This document shows positions 12,485 to 41,672 of a DNA stretch of 64,000 nucleotides, in pieces. The DNA lies in assembly GCA_963675295.2 (NCBI GenBank), contig CAXXKJ010000002.1:64001-128000 (forward strand), given 5' to 3'. Below the pieces are notes generated by a model. It did not search any database, was not told where the DNA came from, and was given only the letters and a program-made list of their open reading frames with translations. Within the stretch, counting starts at the first letter, position 1. The number at the start of each line of letters is the position of its first letter. Position numbers and translations under genes: made by a program. This stretch comes from a bacterium. Lineage in GTDB: Bacteria > Electryoneota > Electryoneia > Electryoneales > Electryoneaceae.

Positions 12485-13900
12485 CTACAGAAACACCACT
12501 TTCGCCTTCACATCACCCGCCTTGTCCACCAGGATGTTGCGGGTATCGAACACCACGGACGCATGTTCCATGATCATGTCATAATCGACATTTTGTTTGT
12601 GTCCTGTGGTGATGATGATCAAATCCTGCTCCGCGAGCGTCTCCGGAGTCAACGGTGTCGATTCGACCATCCCGCTGTCTTCCATCTTCGCTTTCGGGCA
12701 ATACGGGTCGTGGTAGCTCATCACCGCGCCGCGTCGTTCCAGCAGCATGTACACATCCAGCGCCGGCGATTCACGCAGATCGTCGATGTCGTTCTTGTAC
12801 GCCATCCCGATCAGCATGATTTTCGAGCCGTTGAGCGGCTTCTTCTCGTCGTTCAGCAGCGCGCCCGCGCGGTTGACCACCCAGCGCGGCATGTCGGTGT
12901 TGATCTCGGTCGCGAGGTCAATGAAGCGGGTCTTGTATTCCATTGACCGCATTTTCCACGCGAGGTAGCTCGGGTCGATCGGGATGCAGTGCCCGCCCAA
13001 TCCCGGACCGGGGTAGAATGGCATGAAGCCGAACGGTTTCGTCGCGGCGGCGTCGATGATCTCCCACACATTCACTTCGAGCAGGTGGCAGATGATCGCG
13101 AGTTCATTGACCAGGCCGATGTTGATCGCGCGGAAGGTGTTTTCGTACAGCTTGACCATTTCCGCGGCGGTGGTCGAACTCAGCGGCACCGGCTTGTCCA
13201 CGATCTGCCCGTAAAACGTTGTCGCGATCTCAGTGCAGGCCGCGGTTACGCCACCCACCACCTTCGGCGTATTTTTCGGGCCGTGGGTTGCGTTCCCCGG
13301 GTCGATGCGTTCCGGGCTGAACGCGACAAAGATGTCCTCGCCGATCGTAAGGCCGGCCTCTTCGACCGCCGGAACGAACAGATCTTCGGTGGTGCCGGGG
13401 TACGTCGTCGATTCCAGCGAGATCAGCATGCCGGGATGCAGATGTTTTTTCATCGCGGTCAACGCGCTGACCACGAAGCTGAGGTCAGGGTCGCCGGTCT
13501 TGACCAGCGGAGTCGGCACGGTGATCAGGACAACGTCCAGCTCGCGCACGATGGCGTAGTCAGTGGTCGCGTCCAGCTTGCCGGCGTCCACATGCTTCTT
13601 CGCGGCGTTGGCGGGCACATCCTGGATGTAGCTTTCGCCACGGTTGATCTGGTCGACCCGGCGGCTGTCAACTTCGATACCGGTGACATGAAAGCCGGCG
13701 TCCGCGGTGATCTCGGCCATCGGATAGCCGACATAGCCCATACCAATGATCCCGACACGGGCGGTGCGGGCTTCGATCCGATCTTTCAGAGTCCTGGCAT
13801 GTGTCGAAAGCACGGCGGTACCGGCTTGAAAGGGAGCAGCGAACGATGCGCCGCTGGCCGTGGCCCGCGCACCGGTGCTGACATCGGCGACCATCTTCAT
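12485..13900 (-). CDS. UDP-N-acetyl-D-glucosamine 6-dehydrogenase (WbpA/WecC family)
   Basis: GMGYVGYP, VPTP, ESTTYPGTTE, SPERIDPGN, KLYENTFRAINI, GGHCIPIDP, AYKNDIDDLRESPAL. Start 13900 or 13894. Confidence 0.92.
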   Translation of the reverse strand: MKMVADVSTGARATASGASFAAPFQAGTAVLSTHARTLKDRIEARTARVGIIGMGYVGYPMAEITADAGFHVTGIEVDSRRVDQINRGESYIQDVPANAAKKHVDAGKLDATTDYAIVRELDVVLITVPTPLVKTGDPDLSFVVSALTAMKKHLHPGMLISLESTTYPGTTEDLFVPAVEEAGLTIGEDIFVAFSPERIDPGNATHGPKNTPKVVGGVTAACTEIATTFYGQIVDKPVPLSSTTAAEMVKLYENTFRAINIGLVNELAIICHLLEVNVWEIIDAAATKPFGFMPFYPGPGLGGHCIPIDPSYLAWKMRSMEYKTRFIDLATEINTDMPRWVVNRAGALLNDEKKPLNGSKIMLIGMAYKNDIDDLRESPALDVYMLLERRGAVMSYHDPYCPKAKMEDSGMVESTPLTPETLAEQDLIIITTGHKQNVDYDMIMEHASVVFDTRNILVDKAGDVKAKVVFL

Positions 13901-23991: not shown

Positions 23992-24218
23992 GCGGGGGAC
24001 ATCTGTGGCACAACTTGCCGCTGGATCGGAGTGAGCGGGATGGTCGATAGACTCACCGTGTTGGATACCAGGACCGGTATGTGCCACAGTTGTCCCCGCG
24101 CATGGCCGTCGAACCGGGGACAAGTGAACGGCTTAATCGTAGACACATTCGAGGCACTGTACCGGCTGATCAGGAACCACACACCGAATAACCACCGGCT
24201 ATCCGTTCACATGTCCCC
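23992..24218. repeat. Two tandem ~105 bp inverted-repeat elements with GGGGACA...TGTCCCC ends
   Basis: GCGGGGGACATCTGTGGCACA (23992) pairs with TGTGCCACAGTTGTCCCCGC (24080-24099); GGGGACAAGTGAACGG (24116) pairs with CCGTTCACATGTCCCC (24203-24218). Confidence 0.75.
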
Positions 24219-24229
24219 TGAGTATCTCG

Positions 24230-26017
24230 CTACGGCCCAAAGGGCGGGTCGGGGTGCTCCGGTTCCGGTTCAATCCACGGAGAGTCGTAGAACTTCGGCA
24301 GGTCGTATTCGAAACCATCCCAGATCGGCCAGCAATTCCGGTTGCCTTCCGCGATGAACCAGTACTTTGGTACCTCCACGTTCAACACCTTGAACGTGCA
24401 CTCCTCGAACCTGGCGTGGTAGAAGTAGTAGCAGCGGCTCAAGCGTGGTGCCGCGCCAAACGTAAACCAAGTGGTGAGGGTTGTGTCCGGCTTGTTGAAC
24501 AGCACGTTCTTGTAGTGATGGCTGGTCATGTAATAGTACGTCATGTCGGCGTACGGTTCCATGACGCCGTCTTCCATGAAATAATCCAGCGTCAGGATCA
24601 ATACCGGGTAGTCGAGGATGCCAAACACGATCGAGTTTTCCATCACCAGCGAATCGACCGCGCTGAATGACAGTTCGGACGGGCGGAAGCGTGCGATCTG
24701 GGGGTCGTCAACGGGCAGGTTGTTGTGGCTCAGGAAGATGTGGTTCAGGTGTACCGGCCCGAAGCAGCGTTCCATGAACACGCCGCGGAAGTAGTTGAAC
24801 TGGCAACGAATATGTTCGAGTTCGATGTCGCGTCCGTCTTTGTCGAACCACAATCCATGACCATAATTCCACACGCCTTCGTAGTCGGCGACACGAATGT
24901 GGCGGCAGCGGAAGAATTTGAGGCCGCCGGCGTCATAGCCGACCGTGCCCGCCTCGAACCCGCGCCAGTTGTTGCTGTCGACGAAGGCGTCCCGCAGCTC
25001 TACCCCCAGTGCATGCGCGACCAGGATGCCGTAAATGCCGTTGTCGTGCGCGCGGACGTTTTCGATCAGGTTGTACGGTGGCCGTTTGCTGTAGTCGATG
25101 TACCACGAATCGGGATCGTCCGGATTTAATGGCCGGGCGGGGGTTTTGCGCACGGAAAGACCGTATGAATTCCCGTTGCGGAACATGCAATCGCTGATGT
25201 GCACCTTCTCCACCAGCGCGATATCCACCATGCCGTTCTTGATGAACGAGCTGCCGTACGCGAACTCGAGGTTGTGCAGCTCCACGCCACGGATGTGATG
25301 CGCGCGAAACAGGTACTGGCATTCGGAGTAGTAAATCGGGTACACGTTCGGGTTCAGCGTGGTGCGAACTCGGATGGTGCCGGAACCCTCCATCGGCACG
25401 GCGAAAGAGTTGAGTACATAGGGCACCAGCCCATGATCGCCCAGTTGCCGCAGCCGTTGCTCACCCTGAAACAGGTGCTCGCGGCGGATCAGGGTGTGCG
25501 CGTCACGATACTGCCCGCTATCGGGATTGGGCACCCACTTCTCCAGCAGGCAGCCCATCCAGCCCTCGAAGCCGTCATCGCCGCAGATGTACGAGTCCGG
25601 ATCCTGGTAATAGCCGAAATCATGGTCCCAAGGCGCTTCCCAGATGCTGCCGCCAATGTTGACCCAGCCTTCGATCGGGTCGGGACACAATCCGGTGATT
25701 AGCGGCTTTTCTGCTCCAATTCCCCGGAAAATGAGATACGGAATGTCCCAACCGTTCTATGACACCGTGGAATCGTCCCGCATCCGGTACGTGCCGGGCA
25801 GAATGTTGAGGGTGACGGTCTGATCGCCGGTAAATCCGCTCTGGGTTCGAATCCACTGAATCGTGGTCTGCAGACCGGCGCAAGCGTTGCTGCTGTCCGT
25901 CCCGCTGAAATCGCCGGACCCCTGGGGACTGACCCAGATGGTGTATTGTGCGTTCGCCAGGGGAACGCTGAGGAGAAGCAATGCGAGAAACAGGATGGTC
26001 TGATAGATTGATTTCAT
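24230..26017 (-). pseudogene. Secreted right-handed beta-helix protein, paralog 1, interrupted by one in-frame TAG at 25757-25759 (pseudogene or readthrough)
   Basis: ORFs 25757..26017 and 24230..25690 are in the same frame. The reading DDSTVS*NGWDIPYLIFRG aligns with EDSSLTYTGWDLPYLVLRG and GDSLFRWQGWSKPYLVLEG in the paralogs. Confidence 0.8.
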
Positions 26018-26184
26018 CGTGGCCGCCTGATTGATAACGGTCTACCAATGGCTAAATGTAGTGTGACAGACCGGAGTTTCAAGCGATTAGTTTGCAATTT
26101 CCACGAAAAAGGTTGGTTTTTTGGGGTTAGTCTCTTAGAGGCGAATGTTAATTTTTCTGGTCGTGCGCCGGTAGACAACAAAAC

Positions 26185-26217
26185 AGCCGGTATTTCGGGA
26201 ATTCCCAAAACCGGCTG
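26185..26217 (-). terminator. Intrinsic terminator of paralog 2
   Basis: CAGCCGGT...ACCGGCTG stem followed by TTTTGTTG on the minus strand. Confidence 0.55.
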
Positions 26218-26247
26218 ACGCAGATCATCTCGATATTGTTGTGTGAC

Positions 26248-28050
26248 TCAGGGGCCTCCACCCCCGTGCCGTCTCCCTTTATGCTGTTCCCCTTCCGGCG
26301 GGTCTTCATCCCACGGCGTGTCGTACCACTTCCGCAGATCGTACTCAAATCCATCGTAGATCGGTTGGCAGCGACGGTTGGATTCGGCAATCACGAAATA
26401 TTTCGGGATTTCCAGACCGTCCACGATCCACGTGTTGTGATCGAGCTCGGTGTGGTACATATAATAGCAGCGGCTCATCTGCGGTGCGACACCGAAGTAG
26501 AAGAAGTAGAAATCGTCCCCGTCCGGCCGGCTGAACGTGCAATCCTGGTAGCGATTGTTCCACGCCTGCGTGTACAACGTATCGCTGTACGGTTCCATGA
26601 TGCCATCTTCCATCACGTAGTCGATGGAATGGATCAGCACCGGATATCCGCGCTGGCTCAGCAGCTGCGTGTTGCGGACGAGCATCGTGTCGCAGGCACT
26701 CATGCCCAGCGCGCTCGACCGGAAGCGGTAGATCCGGTCATCGTCCATATCGCGCGTATTCTGCGTCATGATACAGTGTTCGATCAGCACCGGGCCGAAT
26801 GATCGTTCCACAAAGATGCCACGGTAGGAATTGAACTGCATCCGGCTGTTGCGGACAGTCAGGTCGCGTCCATCCTTGTCGAACCACATCCCGTGCCCGT
26901 AATTGAACTGGCTCAGGAGGTTATCGATCACCATGTGCCGGGTTCGGAAGAACTTTGCTGCGCCGGCATCATAGGCGACGGTCCCGGCTTCGTAGCCACG
27001 CCAGTTGTTTCGTTCCAACCGCAGGTTGGTCACCGAGAACGCCTGTGCGTGCGCGATGAACAAGCCGTATATCCCGCAATGGTGGGCGTATACGTTGTCA
27101 ATCGTATTCCACGGCGGCCGCTTCTCTTCCATCACCACCCAGGAATCGGGATCGTACGGATCAATCGGATAACACGGTGCGCGGCTGACATACAAGCCGA
27201 CGGCGTTGCTGTAGCTGAATTCGCAATCGCGGATGGTGACCTGCGGGGTGTTGGTGATTTCGACCATGCCGGTCTTGATGAATGGATTGCCCTGGGTGAA
27301 TACGAGGTTGTGCAGCTCGACCCCCCGGGAGTTGCGCACCGCTAGCAGCTGTTCGCAATCGGCCATGTAAACCGGGACGTCGTTCGGATTGTCCGGAGTC
27401 TTGATCCGTACCATGCCCGGACCGTACATCGGGACGGTAAATGAAGTCGGGCGCAGCCACAGCGCTTCCATGTTGCCGACTTGCTTGAGTCGTTCCCCGT
27501 TCTGGAACAGCATTTCCCGCCGCAGGATGGTTCGCCCGTCACGCCAACGCTGATTCTCGAGGCTGGGGTGGAAGTTTTCCAGCAGGCATCCGATCCAGCC
27601 CTCGAATCCATCTTCGCCGCAGAGCATGGAATCGGGATTGGCCATGAAGCCGAAGTTGTATGGCCACGGCGCTTCCCAGTAATCGAGCCCCATGTTCACC
27701 CAGCCCTGTATTGGTTCGGGCTGAAGTCCTGTTATAACAGGCTTTTCCGACCCGTGCCCACGGAGAACCAGATACGGCAGATCCCAGCCTGTGTAGGTAA
27801 GACTGGAGTCTTCCGACATGTGGTAGGTTCCGGGCAGGACCATGATTTCAACCGTGGCCTCGCCTGGAATCCCGCTGGTGTGTTTGATAATGGAAAACGC
27901 TCGTTGAAGACCGGGAATGGTATTTGTGCTGTCGGATCCCGAAAAGTTTCCGGACCCTTCAGGGCTGACCCAAAACGTGTATTGAGCAAATGCACCAGGA
28001 ACCAGGATCAGCAGACAAACCAATACCACCAGTCTGCTGGCTACCCGCAC
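26248..28050 (-). CDS. Secreted right-handed parallel beta-helix (pectin-lyase-like fold) protein, paralog 2
   Basis: Signal peptide; YTFWVSPEGSGNFSGSD and LPGTY, typical of beta-helix N-caps; coil repeats NNWRG, GAAKF, NYGHGMWFD, NSYRGIFVERS. Confidence 0.8.
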   Translation of the reverse strand: MRVASRLVVLVCLLILVPGAFAQYTFWVSPEGSGNFSGSDSTNTIPGLQRAFSIIKHTSGIPGEATVEIMVLPGTYHMSEDSSLTYTGWDLPYLVLRGHGSEKPVITGLQPEPIQGWVNMGLDYWEAPWPYNFGFMANPDSMLCGEDGFEGWIGCLLENFHPSLENQRWRDGRTILRREMLFQNGERLKQVGNMEALWLRPTSFTVPMYGPGMVRIKTPDNPNDVPVYMADCEQLLAVRNSRGVELHNLVFTQGNPFIKTGMVEITNTPQVTIRDCEFSYSNAVGLYVSRAPCYPIDPYDPDSWVVMEEKRPPWNTIDNVYAHHCGIYGLFIAHAQAFSVTNLRLERNNWRGYEAGTVAYDAGAAKFFRTRHMVIDNLLSQFNYGHGMWFDKDGRDLTVRNSRMQFNSYRGIFVERSFGPVLIEHCIMTQNTRDMDDDRIYRFRSSALGMSACDTMLVRNTQLLSQRGYPVLIHSIDYVMEDGIMEPYSDTLYTQAWNNRYQDCTFSRPDGDDFYFFYFGVAPQMSRCYYMYHTELDHNTWIVDGLEIPKYFVIAESNRRCQPIYDGFEYDLRKWYDTPWDEDPPEGEQHKGRRHGGGGP

Positions 28051-28217
28051 GACGATCTTCCCTCCATATCTGCCTATGTGAGGAGCAGTGGGGCGAATAT
28101 AGCTCAGGATGCTGGGCGGGCATGTGGTTTTTCTGAGTTTCCTGTTTTTTGTGACTCTGTCTTCGGTTTACCGTTGACAGAACGAAGATCCGAGGCTCTC
28201 TTTTTGCCGAGAGAGAA

Positions 28218-28238
28218 AACCCCGCGACTGGCGGGGTT
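28218..28238 (-). terminator. Probable intrinsic terminator downstream of the hairpin array
   Basis: Minus strand reads AACCCCGC-CAGTC-GCGGGGTT then TTCTCTCTC. Confidence 0.55.
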
Positions 28239-28307
28239 GTCAGAAATTAGCTACAAAAATGTAAGAACAAAGTCTTAGAATCGCTAAGTTGCTTAGTTTC
28301 AAAATTT

Positions 28308-29104
28308 GCCTGGCGTGGCTGGCCGGATTCGGCTCAGGTTTTGGTTTGACCGTCCGCCATCCACGCACAGGCCTCGGTACTCCGTTCGGGGGGTCAACAG
28401 TTCTGCCTGGCGTGAAGCGTTGGTTGCAAGACAAGATTGCCGAGTGATTGTCTGCCCACGCTTCACGCTCAGGCCAGTGGTCCCTGGATGACCTTCCCGT
28501 GCTTCAACAAGGTTGCCTGGCGTGGGTGATTGGATTCGGCTCAGTGGTTAGTAGTTGACCGTCCATCATCCACGCGCAGGCCTCTGTTTTTCGATTGTCA
28601 AGGTGCTGCGGGTACACGTTTGCCCGGCGTGAAGAGCTGGTGTCGCAAGTCTTCTGATGTGGGTCAGGTCATGCTCCCCACGCACGGGCCTGTGGTTCCT
28701 GGGTTGTGGCTTCCGTTGTATCCACAGATCTGCCTGGCGTGGCTGGCTGGATTCGGCTCAGGTTTTGGTTTGACCGTCCGCCATCCACGCGCAGGCCTCA
28801 GTTTCCGATTGTCAAGATCCCGTTGTACAGATTTGCCTGGCGTGAAGCGCTGAAAAACGGATCATCATTTCGGTTTTTGTTGTCCGTCCGCACTTCACGC
28901 ACAGGCCTCAATCCCCGGGTTACCGTTTTCGGCAACCGCTACAAGGTTGCCTGGCGTGGCTGGCCGGATTCGGCTCAGGTTTTGGTTTGACCGTCCGCCA
29001 TCCACGCACAGGCCTCGGTACTCCCGATTGTCACACTTCTGCCCGGCGTAGAGAGTATGCCATGTGTTGCCTGGAGTGGGGTTGGTCCCTCTCCACGCAC
29101 GGGC
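28308..29104. repeat. Array of eight alternating hairpin units (GCCYGGCGTG...CACGCNCRGGC), 64-72 bp each, separated by 27-42 bp linkers
   Basis: Units at 28308-28372, 28405-28474, 28515-28581, 28622-28689, 28732-28796, 28835-28906, 28949-29013 and 29041-29104. Odd units share a conserved interior; even units have unrelated interiors. Confidence 0.92.
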
Positions 29105-29111
29105 CTCAATC

Positions 29112-30926
29112 CTATTCACCCGACAGTTCACGCTGCTTTCGGAACGGGTTGTCGCCCGGTACCGTGTCCAGCCACGGACTGTCGTAGAAATCGCGCAAGT
29201 CGTAGTTATTCCCGTATTCCACCGGCGGACACCACCTGATCATCTCCCGAACCACTTCGAAATGGGTGTGGTCCATCGTGCGTGTCCGGAATTCGGTTTC
29301 GTTGAACAGGGTGTGGAACATGTAGTAGCAGCGGAACATGAACCCTTCCACCACGAACCAGATGAACGACAGCTCCGGATCGGACCGGGTGATCGTGCAG
29401 TGTTCGAACTTGTTGTTCCAGCACTGCAGGTATTCCGGTTCGCCGTAGGGGGCATACAGACCCGGCTCCAGCAGGAAGTCCGGCGAGTGCATCATGATCG
29501 GGTAGCGGTACGGGTCGCTGATATGGCAGGAGCGAACGGTGATCGTATCGGTCGCGCTGATGCCCATCGCGCTCGGTCGCAGCCGCACAACCGTCGTATC
29601 CACCGGCTGCGAATTGTTTTCCATCACCACACGTTCCAGCAGGATCGGACCCGGCGCGCGTTCGATGTAGAAGCCGCGGTAGTAGTTGAACTCCAGCCGG
29701 CTGTCGCGCAGGGTCAGGTCACGGCCGTCCAGGTCGAACCAGATCCCGGCACCGTAGTTCCAGTCGGCGAGGTAGCCGGTCACTTCGCTGTGACGGCAGC
29801 GGAACATCTTCATCCCGCCGGTGTCGTAGGCCATTGTGCCGGATTCGTACCCACGCAGGTTGTTGCGCCGCACGATGCTGTTCTTGTGCAACAGGCCCTT
29901 GGAGTGGGCGATCAGCATCCCGTAGAACCCGTTGTCGTGCGTGTAGCAGTTATCGATCTGCCACCAGCCCGGGCTGTTCGCTTCCTCGATGTAGTCGAAA
30001 TCGGAATCGGGATCGTTTGGGTTGATCGGCCGCATCGGCATCTTGCGCACGGAAATGCCGTCCGCGTTGCTGTGGTGGAATTCACAGTCCTTGATGAGTG
30101 CGGTTTCGGAAGAGCTGATGTCCACCATGCCGAACTTGATGTACGGGTTGGCGTACGCGAACTCGAGGTTGTGCAGTTCGACGCCGCGCGTGTCACGCGC
30201 GGCAAAGAGGTACGAACAGTTCGCGGCATAAACCGGAACCTGGTTCGGGTTCTGATCGGTGTTGATGCGAACGTATCCAGTGCCTTCCAATGGGGTGTGG
30301 AAGGTTTGCTCGCGCATGTCGACGAATTCCGGCATCGTCAACTGCGTGAACCGTTCGCCGTCCTGAATGATCAATTCCCGGCGTAACATCGTGAGACCGT
30401 CCCGCCACTGGCCGGTGTTCAAATCGGGCACATACGATTCGATCGTGCAGCCAATCCAGCCATCCCAGTCGGAACCGCAAACATAGTTGTCCGGGTTGCC
30501 GTACCAGCCGAAGTCGTAGTTCCACTCCGCGACCCAGACATTGCCGCCCAGGTTCGTCCACGGACCCAGCGGCTCTTCGTCCAGCCCGCTCAGCAACGGA
30601 CGGGTTTCGCCGTTCGGGCCAAGGCCGTCCAGTCCTTCCAGGACGAGATATGGTTTTGACCAGCCCTGCCAACGGAATAGCGAATCACCCTTGAAGTGAT
30701 ACGTACCGGGCAGAACCTTCATCGTCACCATGTCATCCCCGGTGATCTCCGGGTGCATGCGTACATACGTCGCCGCCTCGTACAGGCCGCACATGGCGTT
30801 GTCCGGATCGGAACCGCTCATGTTGCCGGAACCTTGAGGGCTTACATAAAATGTATACTCCGTGGCAAACAGACTCGCCGGCAGCAACAGCGCCAGGATC
30901 AGTATGCCAAGAATGCCTCGTACCAT
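29112..30926 (-). CDS. Secreted right-handed parallel beta-helix protein, paralog 3
   Basis: SD GGAGAGG before ATG 30926; signal peptide MVRGILGILILALLLPASLFA; YVSPQGSGNMSGSDPDN, LPGTY, NNLRG, GGMKMF, NYGAGIWFD; collinear with the other two paralogs. Confidence 0.82.
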   Translation of the reverse strand: MVRGILGILILALLLPASLFATEYTFYVSPQGSGNMSGSDPDNAMCGLYEAATYVRMHPEITGDDMVTMKVLPGTYHFKGDSLFRWQGWSKPYLVLEGLDGLGPNGETRPLLSGLDEEPLGPWTNLGGNVWVAEWNYDFGWYGNPDNYVCGSDWDGWIGCTIESYVPDLNTGQWRDGLTMLRRELIIQDGERFTQLTMPEFVDMREQTFHTPLEGTGYVRINTDQNPNQVPVYAANCSYLFAARDTRGVELHNLEFAYANPYIKFGMVDISSSETALIKDCEFHHSNADGISVRKMPMRPINPNDPDSDFDYIEEANSPGWWQIDNCYTHDNGFYGMLIAHSKGLLHKNSIVRRNNLRGYESGTMAYDTGGMKMFRCRHSEVTGYLADWNYGAGIWFDLDGRDLTLRDSRLEFNYYRGFYIERAPGPILLERVVMENNSQPVDTTVVRLRPSAMGISATDTITVRSCHISDPYRYPIMMHSPDFLLEPGLYAPYGEPEYLQCWNNKFEHCTITRSDPELSFIWFVVEGFMFRCYYMFHTLFNETEFRTRTMDHTHFEVVREMIRWCPPVEYGNNYDLRDFYDSPWLDTVPGDNPFRKQRELSGE

Positions 30927-31164
30927 GTTGACCTCTCCGTGGTCTCGCAAAATCCGAAGTACCAGAAATTGTTATTAAACTCAATTCTTACGATCTTCAG
31001 TAGAATTATCAGAAGAATTTCTCGAGAAAGCAAGACCTCCCAGAGAATTCTAATAATAATTATGAGCACGTTATAATATTACGAAAATAACGGAGTATAA
31101 CAGGGGTTACACCGGATGGAGTGTTGCCTGGAGGGGTAAAAGAGAGGCCTCTTGCAGACAGCGG

Positions 31165-31959
31165 TTACAGTTTGGCGAGCAACTTCCGCGCTTTTTCTTG
31201 CGCCGCCTCGTCATGCTCGTCCCGCAACGGGAGTTCGAGCGCGGCGTCCAGCTGCGCGCGGGCTTCGTCCGCCAGAATCCCTTGTTCGATCAGGTAGTCC
31301 GCGTATTCGACCCGTGCCTGGATCATCTTTCCGTTGGCAACGTGCAGCGCTTTCTTGAAGTAGTAGGCGATGGAATCGTCGGACGCGAAGGTGAGTCCGG
31401 CGAGCCGTCGCGCGAGGCCGGATTTGGCCATCAGCGTGCGGTGAGTGCGTCCGAGGATGTAGTACGCAACCGGCATCGAGTCCGCTTCGACAGCGGCGAG
31501 GTGAGCGTGCCGGTAGGTATCCTTGACCAGCCCGGCCGTGGAAAACGGTCCCTTGAGCAGGGCGACACGTCCGCTGGCGGTGGCGATCCGGATGTGGGCT
31601 TCGGGGTTGTTGGCGTCGGTTTCGAGGATGCGGTTGGCTTCGTCAATGGCGAGTTCATACTGCGGTTGGGCGGCGTCCTGGTCCTCCATCGCCTCGCCGA
31701 TGTCGATCCGTGAGCGTGCGAGACGCCAGAGCACATCGGCGTCCGTGGTGTCGGCGTGGGTTTCCAGCACACGGACGGCGTCCGCATTCCGCCAGCCGGT
31801 GCTGAGCAGGTCGGCGGCGGCAATGGGATTCGTGGCTCCGAGCGAATCGATGATCTGCTCCGCCTGGACATCGCTGAGCCGTGGGCTTGCCTCAACGGTC
31901 AGCACCGCGGCCAGCAGGATCACCAGCAGGGCCGCCAAACTCGCACGCGCCGTTTTCAT
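31165..31959 (-). CDS. Secreted TPR-like helical-repeat protein
   Basis: Signal peptide; DVLWRLARS, NPEAHIRIA, AYYILGR and YADYL helical-repeat pattern. Confidence 0.65.
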   Translation of the reverse strand: MKTARASLAALLVILLAAVLTVEASPRLSDVQAEQIIDSLGATNPIAAADLLSTGWRNADAVRVLETHADTTDADVLWRLARSRIDIGEAMEDQDAAQPQYELAIDEANRILETDANNPEAHIRIATASGRVALLKGPFSTAGLVKDTYRHAHLAAVEADSMPVAYYILGRTHRTLMAKSGLARRLAGLTFASDDSIAYYFKKALHVANGKMIQARVEYADYLIEQGILADEARAQLDAALELPLRDEHDEAAQEKARKLLAKL

Positions 31960-35211: not shown

Positions 35212-35318
35212 CAGCGAAACCCGATAAAAGGGAGTGCTCCTGGTTCCACTTTTGGGAATTCGTGAGATTATTCTGGCTTTTTGCCTCCGAATGAGGTTAT
35301 AATTATGAGTCCGACATC

Positions 35319-39265: not shown

Positions 39266-39578
39266 TCGGTACGTGCTCCTGATGGAGTAGACCTAGAAAG
39301 TATATAAGATCCAACATCAGAAAAACGGTATCAATGGAGAACTGCGTGTCTGGACTTCCCGGGAAGTCCAGTGTAACTTCCCGGCGACTGTTCATGTCCA
39401 AGGTAGACCGGGAGAGACCTCCGTTTTTTAAACACCACTTTCAGCAATATGTTCGTGCAACGCCGACTTTTTCGTGTAGATTAATAGGTGGGGTTCTATT
39501 TGCGAAAGAAGTTCGGGGTGCGCAAGGTAAACGTTGGCCGCGGTTCGCAACCCGGCTGCAACAGGAAGGACAGACGGT

Positions 39579-41672
39579 ATGCGCGTACGATTTGTGATGC
39601 TTTTGGTTGGTTTGATGATTTTGGGTACGGCGGGCCTGGCGTTGGCCGATGACCTGATTCATCTGAAGCCGGACCACGTGACGTTCCAGAAAATCAGCAA
39701 GCCCACTGATTTTCAGCAGCAGGGTGGCAACGAGCTCGACGTGTACTCGGATTCGCTTCAGCAGTATACGAACACTCCCTATGTGGGTTATCAGAACGGT
39801 GTGACGTTCTATGCCCAGATGCACTTCACCGCCCCGGGCAACTTCGAGGTTCGTGGTATTTCCGCGTTTATCCTTGACCAGAACCTGAATTCGACTTCAA
39901 CTTCGATGTATGTTTATGAAGACAACAACGGCGCGCCGGGGACGTTGCTCGGTTCGCTGTTGAACGCCCCGACGGATCAGGTTCCGTTCGGCGCCCCGTG
40001 GACCTACATGCGAATTGAATACCCGGACGATGAATCAGGCGTCTCCGTATCCGCAGGTACGGAATTCTGGGTAGTTGTCGGCCCGGCACCGGCATACAGC
40101 TTCTCCAACGGTACAGGCTGGACATTTGTCTGGGATGACGACGGCAATGCCAGCTTCACCGACCACCGCAACACCACCGGCACCCCGGCGACGCTGGGCA
40201 CCGCGATCACCGGTGACTGGGAAATTGACGTGCTCGGCAACGTGGAAGAGTTCTCCAACGTTCGTGCCACCGCACTGGTCAACGACACCCGCCAGTTCCA
40301 CATCATGCCGGATGAGCCGCGCCAGCTGCGCGTAATCATGGAAAATGTCGGCTCGGTTGCGTCCACCGCCGGTTCCGCTTTGTTCACGATTGAAGACGAA
40401 CAGGGCAGCACGGTGTTCACGGAAACGGTGCCTGTCCCCTCGATTTCGGGTGAAGATACCGACAGTGTTGCCACGACCGGTACGTGGACCCCGGCGGACG
40501 ATCAGCGCTTCATCGCGAGCGTCCTGATTACGATTCCGGATGATGGTGATCCGAGCGACAATGCTGCGATGCTGATGCAGGATGTCACCCAGATCGACGA
40601 TTTCTTCACCTATTCGGACGGGACAAGCGACGCGACGATCAACTACCAGGCCGACACTGGCCCGGGCGCGCTTTTCTACCCGCTGGGTTACCCGGCTACG
40701 ATCGACACGATTCGTTTCTATTTCCCGAACGCCGCGAACGACATGTTGTTCAAGCTCTTCGCCATCAACAGCAACAATCAGTTCACGGAACTTTGGTCGA
40801 ACACCGCGAACGTGGTTGTCGGCTGGAATGAGTTCGTGATGCCCGAAACGTACGAGATCACGGAAGGCAGCTTTGTCCCGACGTTGGTCAGCCCGGGCAA
40901 CGTGAGCATTCCGTTCGATACGAACGATCCGATCTCGGCTGCGAACGAGCAGATGCCGATGGCGACCATCACCTGGAACGAGGCTACGCAGGAGATGTCC
41001 GGTTCCTCGAGTGGCAACTGGATGATCCAGGCGTCGATCACCTCGACTCCGCCGCAGGATATCGACATCATCTTCCCGCCGCTGGTCACCAACATTGGTG
41101 AGACTCCGGTGGGTACGCCGCTGACCTATTACCTCCAGTTCAGCAACGAAGGCGAGGATGACGGTCACATCACAGCGATTCAGAACACCTACCCGGAGCT
41201 CGAGATTCCGGCCGCCGCCAACCTGCCGGTAACGATTCCGGCTGGTGGCGATTACAATCTGGAGCTGATCTGGACGCCGACCACGGAAGGTCCGAGGAAC
41301 ATGGGCTTCCAGGTTTCGCATGACGATCCGGATGACAACAACCCGTACATCATCGGCCTGACCGGTAACGCGCTGTCGGGTGTTGCATATACCGATCCGA
41401 CGATCCCGAACACGTACTTCCTCGAGCAGAACAAGCCGAACCCGTTCAACCCTGAAACGACGATTCGTTTCGGGCTGAAGGCTCCGGGCCACGCGACGCT
41501 CACGGTGTACAACCTGATGGGTCAGGAAGTTCGTACGCTGATCGACCAGGAGATGACGCCGGGCAGCCACACGGTGCTGTTCAACGCCAGCGACCTGCCG
41601 AGCGGCGTGTACTTCTACAGCCTCCAGGCGAACGACTTCAAGTCGATCCAGAAGATGATGCTGATGAAGTAA
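39579..41672 (+). CDS. Secreted Ig-like/CARDB-domain protein with C-terminal T9SS-A/FlgD-like sorting domain
   Basis: Signal peptide MRVRFVMLLVGLMIL; DGDPSDN; C-terminus QNKPNPFNPETTIRF...PSGVYFYSL...KMMLMK. Confidence 0.8.
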   Translation: MRVRFVMLLVGLMILGTAGLALADDLIHLKPDHVTFQKISKPTDFQQQGGNELDVYSDSLQQYTNTPYVGYQNGVTFYAQMHFTAPGNFEVRGISAFILDQNLNSTSTSMYVYEDNNGAPGTLLGSLLNAPTDQVPFGAPWTYMRIEYPDDESGVSVSAGTEFWVVVGPAPAYSFSNGTGWTFVWDDDGNASFTDHRNTTGTPATLGTAITGDWEIDVLGNVEEFSNVRATALVNDTRQFHIMPDEPRQLRVIMENVGSVASTAGSALFTIEDEQGSTVFTETVPVPSISGEDTDSVATTGTWTPADDQRFIASVLITIPDDGDPSDNAAMLMQDVTQIDDFFTYSDGTSDATINYQADTGPGALFYPLGYPATIDTIRFYFPNAANDMLFKLFAINSNNQFTELWSNTANVVVGWNEFVMPETYEITEGSFVPTLVSPGNVSIPFDTNDPISAANEQMPMATITWNEATQEMSGSSSGNWMIQASITSTPPQDIDIIFPPLVTNIGETPVGTPLTYYLQFSNEGEDDGHITAIQNTYPELEIPAAANLPVTIPAGGDYNLELIWTPTTEGPRNMGFQVSHDDPDDNNPYIIGLTGNALSGVAYTDPTIPNTYFLEQNKPNPFNPETTIRFGLKAPGHATLTVYNLMGQEVRTLIDQEMTPGSHTVLFNASDLPSGVYFYSLQANDFKSIQKMMLMK

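What the first reader, a model, noticed from the sequence alone, without database searches (positions are those of the whole stretch)
28308..29104. Eight-unit alternating hairpin array with covarying stems between paralogous beta-helix genes: candidate structured-RNA or ssDNA-recognition system
Seen in sequence: eight 64-72 bp units, each bounded by GCCYGGCGTG...CACGC-N-CRGGC, a 10-bp stem with one bulged base. Units 2-8 are preceded by ACA-NNNN-T (AAA in unit 1). Period is 92-114 bp. Units strictly alternate. Type A (1,3,5,7) has a conserved interior GGATTCGGCTCA...TGACCGTCC, and units 1 and 7 are identical. Type B (2,4,6,8) interiors are unrelated to each other yet each extends the stem (AAGCGT/ACGCTT, GAGC/GCTC, AAGCGC/GCACTT, GAGAG/CTCTC). 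Compensatory changes: GCCTG/CAGGC becomes GCCCG/CGGGC in units 4 and 8, and TGGC/GCCA (unit 1) becomes TGAT/ATCA (unit 3). Four plus-strand A-C mismatches in the basal stems (units 4, 6, 8) become G-U pairs on the minus strand, versus one G-U on plus. The array starts 7 nt after the stop of paralog 3 and ends before a minus-strand terminator (28218-28238). Inference: structure rather than sequence is conserved, probably in a minus-strand transcript that could be processed into constant-scaffold and variable-cargo small RNAs. Alternatives are recombinase/HUH-nuclease hairpin sites or a BIME/REPIN-like cluster. It does not fit CRISPR or attC patterns, and no cognate enzyme was recognised in the window.
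Basis: partly seen in the sequence, partly recalled or inferred. Interest (0 to 1): 0.88.

Follow-up and report, generated by a model that had tools for sequence, protein, structure and literature searches.

The report
Genus-specific tandem hairpin array after gene
Eight long, bulged hairpins sit in a row behind a secreted beta-helix protein gene; they are kept in shape by compensating mutations in all four known species of the genus, most likely as a folded RNA tail of that gene's transcript, and belong to no described RNA or repeat family.

Summary
Window 28308-29104 holds eight 64-72 nt hairpin units: 8 pattern matches against 0 in shuffles. They occur nowhere else in the 4.8 Mb genome. The same array lies at the same place in all 4 genomes of the genus, with 8, 6, 5 and 1 units, and in 0 of 75 other genomes of the phylum.

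Across 20 units, 10 of 18 stem pairs carry compensatory changes and 95.9% of cells pair. A one-base bulge five pairs above the base is present in 20 of 20 units. The basal stem has 12 G-U pairs on the minus strand and none on the plus strand. Between two species the basal stems differ by 2.4%, against 26% at four-fold sites.

It is not REP/BIME, attC, CRISPR, TIGR or any Rfam family.

Best reading (0.5): a minus-strand structured RNA, co-transcribed as the 3' tail of the upstream beta-helix gene. Its bulged stem is recognised by an unknown factor that controls RNA stability or processing. The 'variable cargo' idea is weakened: type-B units are stable orthologues, and alternation is not conserved. 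Interest is moderate.

The parts
29041..29104 (-). Hairpin unit 8 (type B), first unit in the direction of transcription; starts 7 nt after the stop of the upstream gene
   Evidence: covariance model R1 53.4 bits; orthologue in G001
28949..29013 (-). Hairpin unit 7 (type A), identical to unit 1
   Evidence: 78 bits; absent from G001 together with unit 6
28835..28906 (-). Hairpin unit 6 (type B, keeps a degenerate type-A 3'-arm motif)
   Evidence: 64.4 bits; absent from G001 but covered by a DNA contig of run X6 (record 12)
28732..28796 (-). Hairpin unit 5 (type A)
28622..28689 (-). Hairpin unit 4 (type B; outer stem GCCCG/CGGGC)
   Evidence: 52 bits; the G001 orthologue differs at many interior positions yet still folds at -33.0 kcal/mol
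28515..28581 (-). Hairpin unit 3 (type A variant)
28405..28474 (-). Hairpin unit 2 (type B); loop CACUCGGC conserved in G000, G001, G002 and G003
28308..28372 (-). Hairpin unit 1 (type A), last unit before the terminator
28373..29040 (-). Seven linkers of 27-42 nt lying between the units within this span. Read on the minus strand, each hairpin is followed by ARANNUGU. Four of the seven linkers carry a UUGAC- or GUGACA-type word some 13-20 nt before the next hairpin, which is preceded by GAG, CAG or CUG
   Evidence: 12 differences in 157 aligned linker positions (7.6%) between G000 and G001
28239..28307 (-). A+T-rich linker between unit 1 and the terminator
   Evidence: lies within the 28051-28307 stretch that differs from G001 at 17 of 257 positions
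28218..28238 (-). Intrinsic terminator-like hairpin with a U tract, closing the array on the minus strand
   Evidence: 8 pairs, 6 G-C, tail TTCTCTCTCG; conserved in G001 with changes only in the loop
29112..30950 (-). Upstream gene: 612 aa right-handed beta-helix protein ('paralog 3')
   Evidence: Pfam PF13229, 53.5 bits; orthologues in G001 (95% identity) and G002 (67%), lost in G003
26248..28050 (-). Downstream gene: 600 aa beta-helix protein ('paralog 2')
   Evidence: Pfam PF13229, 49.6 bits; 45% identical to paralog 3

Best explanation
The array is a structured RNA element specific to this genus and to this one locus.

Proposed working. It is transcribed on the minus strand as the long (about 890 nt) 3' tail of the upstream beta-helix gene and ends at the intrinsic terminator at 28238-28218. 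Each unit is a hairpin of about 24-27 pairs. Its base has an almost invariant sequence and shape: 5 pairs, a one-base bulge on the 5' arm, then 6 pairs (GCCYG-N-GCGUG... / ...CACGCCRGGC). A trans-acting factor, either an RNA-binding protein or a ribonuclease, recognises this basal module together with the short conserved flanks. The row of hairpins thereby sets the fate of the transcript. It acts as a barrier to 3'-to-5' decay and/or as defined processing sites, so that the level of the upstream gene is uncoupled from that of its paralogues. This works like REP/BIME hairpins or the 3' stem-loops of 'selective RNA processing and stabilisation' operons.

Shown: the anatomy; the restriction to one locus and one genus; conservation of pairing by compensatory change; the invariant bulge; slower evolution of the basal stems than of four-fold sites; presence in contigs of RNA libraries.

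Inferred: the strand; co-transcription with the upstream gene; the existence of a recognising factor; the effect on RNA stability.
For: Real and non-random: 8 of 8 units match against 0 in shuffles.

Single locus: a regular expression, covariance model R1 and nhmmer each find only these 8 units in 4.81 Mb.

Distribution: the array sits at the same syntenic place in 4 of 4 genomes of the genus, with 8, 6, 5 and 1 units, always in the same orientation as the flanking genes. It is found in 0 of 12 other-genus genomes of the family and 0 of 75 other genomes of the phylum.

Covariation: 18 consensus pairs, 10 with changes on both sides; 95.9% of 342 cells paired against 83.4% in shuffles (0 of 500 reach it) and 31-42% when partners are slid.

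Bulge: present in 20 of 20 units with free identity (T 10, C 6, A 4, G 0). This argues for selected geometry rather than mere stability.

Basal stem: 267 Watson-Crick pairs, 12 G-U on minus, 0 A-C and 1 other, of 280 cells.

Fold: z = -8.8 for the minus strand and -5.9 for the plus strand.

Terminator: a minus-strand intrinsic terminator directly follows the array, and none separates the gene from the array.

Divergence between G000 and G001: basal stems 4 of 165 (2.4%); whole aligned array 35 of 492 (7.1%); four-fold sites of four flanking genes 243 of 936 (26%). The basal stem sequence is also kept in G002, whose flanking proteins are only 57-69% identical.

RNA libraries: contigs of two runs of one study cover the array, from a relative 90-95% alike. 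X8 covers 28307-28760 as one 455 nt contig and 28803-28977; X9 covers 28404-28584 and 28588-28924.

Ancestral state: in 6 of the 7 other-genus genomes of the family whose sequence behind the syntenic upstream gene was read, that gene is followed by a terminator-like hairpin.
Against: Strand and transcription are not proven. The contigs give no strand, and RNA libraries can carry DNA.

Whole-unit energies do not favour the minus strand. Per-unit energies differ little, and in 11 of the 14 units of G000 and G001 the plus strand folds slightly better.

Replication geometry does not separate RNA from ssDNA. dnaA at C2:276 kb, with a weak GC skew, places the minus strand possibly on the lagging-strand template, so a single-stranded DNA hairpin would show the same asymmetry.

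The linkers and interiors are not unusually conserved. They differ by 7.6% and 11.2%, no less than other short intergenic regions of the same genome pair (3.7-8.0%). Only the basal stems stand out among non-coding DNA.

Eight units with a sequence-conserved, bulged base are more elaborate than a decay barrier needs.

No candidate binding protein was identified. Hfq and CsrA were not found in the genome, which is 92.8% complete.

The data set is small: only four genomes, and related units are not independent.
Confidence: 0.5

Rival explanations
1. A cluster of trans-acting hairpin RNAs, or a protein sponge. The array is a precursor that is cut at the conserved flanks into hairpin RNAs of about 65-110 nt. 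They share a common protein-binding base and differ in their apical parts. Alternatively the uncut array titrates an RNA-binding protein, as CsrB does with CsrA.
For: The basal module is invariant and the flanks are conserved (ARANNUGU after each hairpin, GAG/CAG/CUG before it). The apical loop of unit 2 (CACUCGGC) is conserved in 4 of 4 genomes. Apical parts differ between units. The array is covered by contigs of RNA libraries. The MAEB motif of Burkholderia is a precedent: 2-12 tandem hairpins with conserved linkers, for which a CsrB-like role was proposed (PMC1950547, section 17, read as passages).
Against: No processed species has been seen. One RNA-library contig runs uncut across five units. 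Type-A loops are not conserved: in unit 1 the interior changes between G000 and G001 lie in and beside the loop. The interiors have no complementarity in the genome beyond chance (best E 0.21) and no match in phage or plasmid collections. Hfq and CsrA were not found. No partner gene is linked to the array.
Confidence: 0.15
2. A neutral or selfish palindromic minisatellite. A terminator-like hairpin was duplicated in tandem, and the arms stay complementary through template switching within the hairpin (quasi-palindrome correction) and unequal recombination, without any function.
For: Copy number varies (8, 6, 5, 1). G001 lacks units 6 and 7, as expected from recombination between type-A units, and units 1 and 7 are identical. 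The element is confined to one young lineage. Other genera have a single terminator-like hairpin at the syntenic site. Linker and interior divergence is no lower than in other intergenic DNA.
Against: Templated correction should perfect the stem, yet the bulge persists in 20 of 20 units and 12 G-U pairs persist in the basal stem. The basal stems differ by 2.4% against 26% at four-fold sites, and they are retained in G002 and G003 at much greater distance. One unit survives in G003 although the beta-helix genes were lost there.
Confidence: 0.15
3. Single-stranded DNA hairpins that serve as sites for a recombinase, an HUH nuclease or a replication protein (like attC, REP or IS200 ends, or a single-strand initiation site).
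For: The units are hairpins with an extrahelical base and a conserved short flank (ACA-N4-T on the plus strand). The asymmetry is strand-specific. The minus strand may be the lagging-strand template. Bioinformatics alone cannot separate ssDNA from RNA motifs (PMC5737381, passage read). The genome carries 12 matches to Y1 transposases.
Against: The element is not mobile: one locus, syntenic in four species. The flanks of the Y1 transposase genes share nothing with the units. No integron integrase scores over the cut-off (best 72.7 against 265 bits). There are no cassettes between units (linkers of 27-42 nt). No recombinase or nuclease was recognised among the 19 proteins scanned between window positions 12485 and 45806. 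A terminator placed after the array rather than before it fits a transcribed element.
Confidence: 0.1
4. A TIGR-type (tandem interspaced guide RNA) stem-loop array, or another RNA-guide array such as CRISPR.
For: There is a superficial likeness. Published TIGR stem-loop arrays are tandem hairpins with palindromic stems and poorly conserved interiors, ending in a terminator (PMC12045711 and bioRxiv 10.64898/2026.09.09.750476, passages read).
Against: No Nop-domain match was found in the genome or among the neighbours. The published box D - 9 nt - box C pair pattern occurs in 2 of 20 units on minus and 3 of 20 on plus, against 1.0 and 0.4 in shuffles with maxima of 4 and 3. Here the stems are the conserved part and the interiors are largely base-paired, the reverse of TIGR units. 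No cas1 was found. No identical direct repeats were found.
Confidence: 0.02

Closest known systems
REP / BIME elements of enterobacteria and REPINs (properties recalled from general knowledge, not from a call)
   Same: Imperfect palindromes that lie behind stop codons or between genes of one transcription unit, often several in a row. They are thought to act as RNA hairpins that block 3' exonucleases.
   Different: REPs are 20-40 nt long, occur in tens to hundreds of dispersed copies and are tied to a RAYT (Y1) transposase. Here the units are 64-72 nt, all 8 copies sit at one locus, and the Y1 genes of the genome have unrelated flanks.
MAEB motif of Burkholderia (PMC1950547, section 17; passages read)
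   Same: A single hairpin repeated 2-12 times in succession with conserved linkers. [quoted passage not shown]
   Different: MAEB occurs at many loci (662 representatives in that paper's table), mostly upstream of metabolic genes. Here there is one locus, downstream of a gene. The sequences are unrelated: no Rfam family matched in this region at E up to 10.
3' stem-loops of selective RNA processing and stabilisation (SRPS) operons, e.g. the cip-cel cellulosome operon (PMC4423207, PMC8219983; search listing and start of abstracts only)
   Same: Intergenic stem-loops behind selected genes of a cluster of related secreted-enzyme genes. They set the relative stability of the transcript segments.
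   Different: Those are single stem-loops without a conserved sequence or bulge. Here there are eight tandem units with an invariant bulged base. Processing sites are unknown.
TIGR stem-loop arrays (PMC12045711; bioRxiv 10.64898/2026.09.09.750476; passages read)
   Same: Tandem hairpin units that escape repeat finders and end in a terminator.
   Different: TIGR arrays need an adjacent Nop-domain Tas gene and two unpaired 8-12 nt spacers framed by box C and box D. Neither is present here.
Integron attC arrays (consensus boxes recalled; general description in PMC5737381, passage read)
   Same: Hairpins conserved in structure more than in sequence, with an extrahelical base and strand-specific folding, arranged in series.
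   Different: There are no R''/R' boxes, no gene cassettes between the sites and no integron integrase.

Membership tests
REP/BIME/REPIN with RAYT | Many dispersed copies across the genome | tested here: not met
   Only the 8 units of this array were found by regular expression, covariance model and nhmmer in 4.81 Mb.
REP/BIME/REPIN with RAYT | A cognate Y1 (RAYT) transposase gene flanked by the same repeats | tested here: not met
   There are 12 Y1_Tnp matches in the genome. For the 8 loci tested (4 of the 8 identical copies and all 4 distinct ones), +/-1.5 kb flanks share at most 12 nt words with the array, with E of 1 or more.
Integron attC / CALIN | Integron integrase in the genome | tested here: not met
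   TIGR02249: best score 72.7 bits against a cut-off of 265. The 14 control genomes give similar sub-threshold hits from ordinary tyrosine recombinases.
Integron attC / CALIN | Open reading frames (cassettes) between successive sites; R''/R' boxes | tested here: not met
   Linkers are 27-42 nt. No AAC...GTT boxes were seen at the unit ends by eye; the consensus was recalled from memory.
CRISPR | Near-identical short direct repeats with unique spacers; cas genes | tested here: not met
   The repeat families are 60-100% alike and self-complementary. TRF finds none. No Cas1 was found. PADLOC gives no hit on 9 of 10 neighbours and one weak hit to an uncharacterised model on the tenth.
TIGR-Tas | Adjacent Nop-domain (Tas) protein | tested here: not met
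   PF01798 gives no match in the genome at E up to 0.1. The 19 neighbouring proteins scanned belong to other families or to none. Caveat: divergent Tas proteins may escape the Pfam model, and no structure comparison was done.
TIGR-Tas | Two 8-12 nt unpaired spacers, each framed by box D and box C, inside every hairpin | tested here: not met
   The published pattern is present in 2 of 20 units (minus) and 3 of 20 (plus), against shuffle means of 1.0 and 0.4. The interiors are mostly paired.
Any Rfam family | Match to a curated covariance model | tested here: not met
   cmscan of 27000-30500 at E up to 10 gave three chance hits to eukaryotic or archaeal families at 16-17 bits, far below their gathering scores.
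Type III toxin-antitoxin (ToxIN-like; features recalled) | RNA repeat array, then a terminator, then an endoribonuclease toxin gene | tested here: not met
   The gene behind the terminator is a 600 aa beta-helix protein. PADLOC gives no hit.
SRPS-type stabilising 3' stem-loops (works like) | Processed 3' ends at the stem-loops and a longer half-life of the upstream segment | not testable with these tools
   This needs 5'-P and 3'-end sequencing and decay measurements. The contigs of RNA libraries show presence only.

The most novel reading that the evidence does not exclude
The array is a bacterial 'polycistronic hairpin-RNA cluster'. An as yet unknown protein, specific to this genus or its phylum, recognises the invariant bulged base and the flanking ARANNUGU and GAG words. 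It releases, or loads itself with, about 65-70 nt hairpin RNAs whose apical parts differ between units. Examples are the loop CACUCGGC of unit 2, conserved in four species, and the A/C-rich loops of type A. This would be a new scaffold-plus-specificity RNA system, unrelated to CRISPR, TIGR or Hfq/CsrA regulons.
Probability: 0.12. Interest if true: 0.8.

Novelty: new variant of a known kind. Interest (0 to 1): 0.45.

Why it matters
If the reading holds, this is a clean natural case of a long 3' untranslated region built only of tandem hairpins that are kept by compensatory evolution and share an invariant bulged 'handle'. It lies in a poorly studied small phylum (79 species genomes held here) in which neither Hfq nor CsrA was found.

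It would give a testable handle on two questions. One is how such bacteria tune the expression of paralogous genes for secreted proteins after transcription. The other is which protein reads the handle.

It is also a useful negative example for repeat and guide-array finders. It looks like REP, attC or TIGR at first sight but fails the defining tests of each.

The practical reach is limited, because it is known from one locus in one genus and no function has been shown.

Tried and rejected
Wider homologue searches that found nothing true:
- A two-unit junction pattern in metagenome contigs gave at least 119 single matches. The stem pattern in viral contigs gave at least 119 single matches.
- Model R1 was run on the 80 listed loci of each scan. 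No hit scored better than E 0.02, and all were short and G+C-rich, so they are chance. The rows beyond the list limit were not examined.
- The genome-contig scan with the upstream protein returned only the G001 contig.
- The pattern search in 61 relatives gave single hits outside the genus, at the rate of the reversed-pattern control.

A weak R1 hit at G003:C70:2518-2584 (31.4 bits) is a perfect 19-pair hairpin between two genes on the opposite strand. It has no bulge, and I do not count it as a member.

Small peptide genes: the open frames across the units are not conserved in frame, given the insertions and deletions between units, so this idea was dropped.

Promoters in the linkers: the UUGACA word has no -10 partner at 16-18 nt (by eye). 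The sigma-70 scan finds none in the array.

tRNA-like units: ARAGORN finds none.

Hfq or CsrA sponge: neither protein family was found.

Targets of the type-B interiors: nothing beyond chance in the host genome, phages or plasmids.

A second hairpin cluster at C2:2975510-2975841 is an unrelated 24 nt repeat.

GC skew and dnaA do not settle RNA against ssDNA.

The upstream beta-helix protein has no relative of solved structure by sequence.

Parts without cover are reported here only, as that tool requires. The RNA-library contigs of X8 and X9 do not cover 28088-28261 or most of the upstream gene (29132-30697), while the DNA run X6 covers both. RNA contigs end at 28078-28080. Contig ends at 28307 also occur in the DNA run and so reflect the repeat. 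None of this is used as evidence. Runs X8 and X9 belong to one study. The joints in X5 (depth 2.8, low likeness) hint at other unit arrangements in a marine relative and were not pursued.

Supplementary files of the papers were not opened. The supplements of the TIGR papers (array alignments) and of PMC1950547 (MAEB alignments) could bear on the comparisons.
Full report
**What is there**

Window 28308-29104 holds eight units of 64-72 nt. On the plus strand each is bounded by GCCYGGCGTR ... CACGC-N-CRGGC. A pattern built from the two stem halves matches 8 times in the 64 kb window and 0.00 times in 100 dinucleotide-preserving shuffles. Every unit folds into one long hairpin on either strand, at -29.5 to -39.4 kcal/mol. 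Start-to-start distances are 97, 110, 107, 110, 103, 114 and 92 nt.

Units 1, 3, 5 and 7 share their interior, and units 1 and 7 are identical over 78 nt. Units 2, 4, 6 and 8 differ inside. Tandem Repeats Finder reports nothing, so the repeat is mainly one of structure.

On the minus strand the order is as follows.
- A 612 aa beta-helix gene (29112-30950), whose stop codon lies 7 nt before unit 8.
- Units 8 to 1.
- A 69 nt A+T-rich linker.
- An intrinsic terminator at 28238-28218.
- About 170 nt later, a second beta-helix gene (26248-28050).

A third paralogue follows at 24215-25996. In this genome it carries an in-frame TAG.

**Copy number and distribution**

The units occur nowhere else in the 4.81 Mb assembly. 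A loose regular expression, a covariance model of the units (R1) and nhmmer each return exactly these eight.

The three other genomes of the genus carry the same kind of unit at the same syntenic place and in the same orientation relative to the genes. G001 has 6 units, G002 has 5 and G003 has 1.

G003 has lost the beta-helix genes. It keeps one unit, with about 350 nt between it and the next upstream gene.

R1 finds nothing in the 12 genomes of other genera of the family, nor in 75 of 75 non-genus genomes of the phylum. The beta-helix paralogues themselves (E of 1e-50 or lower) are likewise found only in the genus.

In other genera I read the sequence behind the syntenic upstream gene, which encodes a 264 aa TPR-like protein, in 7 genomes. 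In 6 of them the gene is followed by a terminator-like hairpin. R1 finds nothing in the 11 other-genus loci with filters off.

Scans of metagenome and viral contigs gave only chance matches.

**Structure conservation**

I aligned the 20 units in minus-strand orientation (A1). RNAalifold gives 18 pairs. Ten of them have at least one unit in which both sides changed and the pair is kept.

Of 342 cells, 95.9% form a standard pair. Column-preserving shuffles give 83.4% (0 of 500 reach the observed value), and sliding the 3' partners by 1-3 columns gives 31-42%.

The units are paralogues and orthologues of each other, so these counts overstate the number of independent events. The changes are nevertheless spread over many pairs and lineages.

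Two features go beyond 'any stable hairpin'.
- A single unpaired base sits after the fifth pair on the 5' arm (minus orientation) in 20 of 20 units. Its identity is free (T 10, C 6, A 4).
- The sequence of the basal 11 pairs is almost invariant across species whose flanking proteins are only 57-69% identical.

**Which strand**

Of 280 cells, 267 are Watson-Crick, 12 are G-U on the minus strand (A-C on plus), none is the reverse, and 1 is other. By my count these 12 cells reflect roughly 9-10 independent changes.

The argument does not hold for whole units. Summed minimum free energies are -681.6 kcal/mol (minus) against -670.8 (plus). In the G000 and G001 units the plus strand is usually slightly better, because the apical part of the type-A units inspected gains G-U pairs on plus.

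The whole 911 nt region folds with z = -8.8 on minus and -5.9 on plus.

Both flanking genes and the terminator are on the minus strand. I therefore take minus as the functional strand, though this is not proven. dnaA lies at C2:276 kb and the skew is weak. The minus strand may therefore also be the lagging-strand template, which leaves a single-stranded DNA reading open.

**Selection**

I compared G000 and G001, whose flanking proteins are 93-95% identical.

| Region | Differences | Rate |
|---|---|---|
| Four-fold degenerate sites, four neighbouring genes | 243 of 936 | 26% |
| Basal stems, units 1-5 | 4 of 165 | 2.4% |
| Unit interiors | 19 of 170 | 11.2% |
| Linkers between units | 12 of 157 | 7.6% |
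| 28051-28307 | 17 of 257 | 6.6% |
| Four other short intergenic regions | 2-16 each | 3.7-8.0% |

A fifth control was aligned unreliably. The array as a whole therefore evolves far more slowly than synonymous sites, but only its basal stems are more conserved than ordinary regulatory intergenic DNA.

G001 lacks units 6 and 7, as expected from recombination between type-A units.

The type-B units are not acquired 'cargo'. Unit 2 has orthologues in all four genomes with the same loop word, and units 4 and 8 have orthologues in G001. In G002 the order of types is A, A, A, B, A, so strict alternation is not a property of the family.

**Expression**

One search for public runs succeeded after repeated busy answers. 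Contigs were laid on 26000-31200.

In two metatranscriptomic RNA-seq runs of one study, contigs 90-95% alike to the window cover the array.
- Run X8: 28307-28760 as one 455 nt contig, and 28803-28977.
- Run X9: 28404-28584 and 28588-28924.

These come from a relative, not from this strain. Contigs give no strand, start, end or level, and RNA libraries can contain DNA. This is therefore a weak indication that the array is transcribed, and that RNA spanning several units exists.

**What it is not**

- Rfam: nothing.
- REP/BIME/REPIN: fails on copy number and on linkage to a RAYT gene. The genome has 12 Y1-transposase matches, eight of them identical IS200-type copies. The flanks of the 8 loci tested share nothing with the units.
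- attC: no integron integrase, no cassettes and no boxes.
- CRISPR: no direct repeats of that kind, no Cas1.
- TIGR-Tas: I read passages of the two TIGR papers because their 'stem-loop arrays' look similar. No Nop domain is found in the genome or among the neighbours. The published box D - 9 nt - box C pair pattern is at chance level. Here the stems, not the interiors, are the conserved part.
- Defence systems: none next to the array.
- Hfq and CsrA: not found.

**Most likely working**

I propose a cis-encoded structured RNA. It would be the 3' untranslated tail of the upstream beta-helix gene's transcript, made of tandem hairpins. A trans-acting protein or ribonuclease reads their bulged basal module and short flanks, and so sets stability or processing of that transcript relative to its paralogues.

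This works like REP/BIME hairpins and like the 3' stem-loops of SRPS operons (PMC4423207 and PMC8219983, seen only as listing and abstract start). Its closest formal analogue is the MAEB tandem-hairpin motif (PMC1950547, section 17, passages). It is a member of none of these families. I give this reading 0.5.

The rivals are:
- a processed small-RNA cluster or protein sponge (0.15);
- a functionless palindromic minisatellite kept complementary by templated repair (0.15; the persistent bulge and G-U pairs speak against it);
- single-stranded DNA sites (0.1);
- a guide-RNA array (0.02).

**Verdict**

This is a new, genus-restricted variant of the known kind 'tandem intergenic hairpin element'. 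It has unusually clear covariation and an invariant bulged base, and its function is unproven. Interest is moderate (0.45). It would rise sharply if discrete processed RNAs or a specific binding protein were found.

Noticed in passing
window 24215-25996 (minus strand), stop codon near 25758-25760: The third beta-helix paralogue carries an in-frame TAG about 80 codons into the frame read here (24215-25996). The G001 orthologue is an intact open frame of 620 aa. This is either a recent pseudogene or a sequencing error.
   Followed up: partly
L024 (G003:C66), about 350 nt between the single hairpin unit and the TPR-like gene: G003 lacks all beta-helix paralogues but keeps one hairpin unit and a short stretch that resembles the 3' end of the lost gene. 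The array therefore outlived its gene there.
   Followed up: partly
own genome, outside the window: C1:26543, C2:1839730, 2156867, 2784561, 3505698, 3580594, 3957328, 4003957: Eight identical copies of an IS200/IS605-type Y1 transposase frame (163 aa), plus four more divergent Y1 matches. This looks like an active or recently active insertion sequence. It is unrelated to the array.
   Followed up: partly
own genome C2:2975600-2975860 (outside the window): Four tandem copies of a unit of about 24 nt containing GGGGACACTT, followed by perfect palindromes of the same word, between two genes. This is an unrelated repeat family.
   Followed up: no
L032 (G003:C70:2518-2584): A perfect 19-pair hairpin whose 5' arm ends in GGTTGGTCAAAC, resembling the type-A interior word. 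It has no bulge and lies between genes on the other strand. It is probably unrelated.
   Followed up: partly
L167 (G002:C19:30927-32717): The G002 orthologue of the upstream beta-helix gene shows one in-frame TGA within the match.
   Followed up: no
window 39534-41672 (+): A 712 aa protein with a type IX secretion C-terminal sorting domain (PF18962). By recalled knowledge of where this secretion system occurs, that hints at a lineage of the Fibrobacterota-Chlorobiota-Bacteroidota type. Only 79 species genomes of the phylum are held.
   Followed up: no
L296 (G007:C133), about 20 nt behind the TPR-like gene: In the nearest other genus, the syntenic gene is followed by a hairpin with the outer stem GGCCTGTG/CACAGGCC. 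This shares the GCCTG/CAGGC outer pairs of the array units. It could be a chance likeness or the ancestral single hairpin.
   Followed up: partly
window 28051-28307, 30951-31164, 35212-35318: Short intergenic regions differ by only 4-8% between G000 and G001, while four-fold sites differ by 26%. Non-coding DNA is unusually constrained, or synonymous change unusually fast, in this pair.
   Followed up: partly
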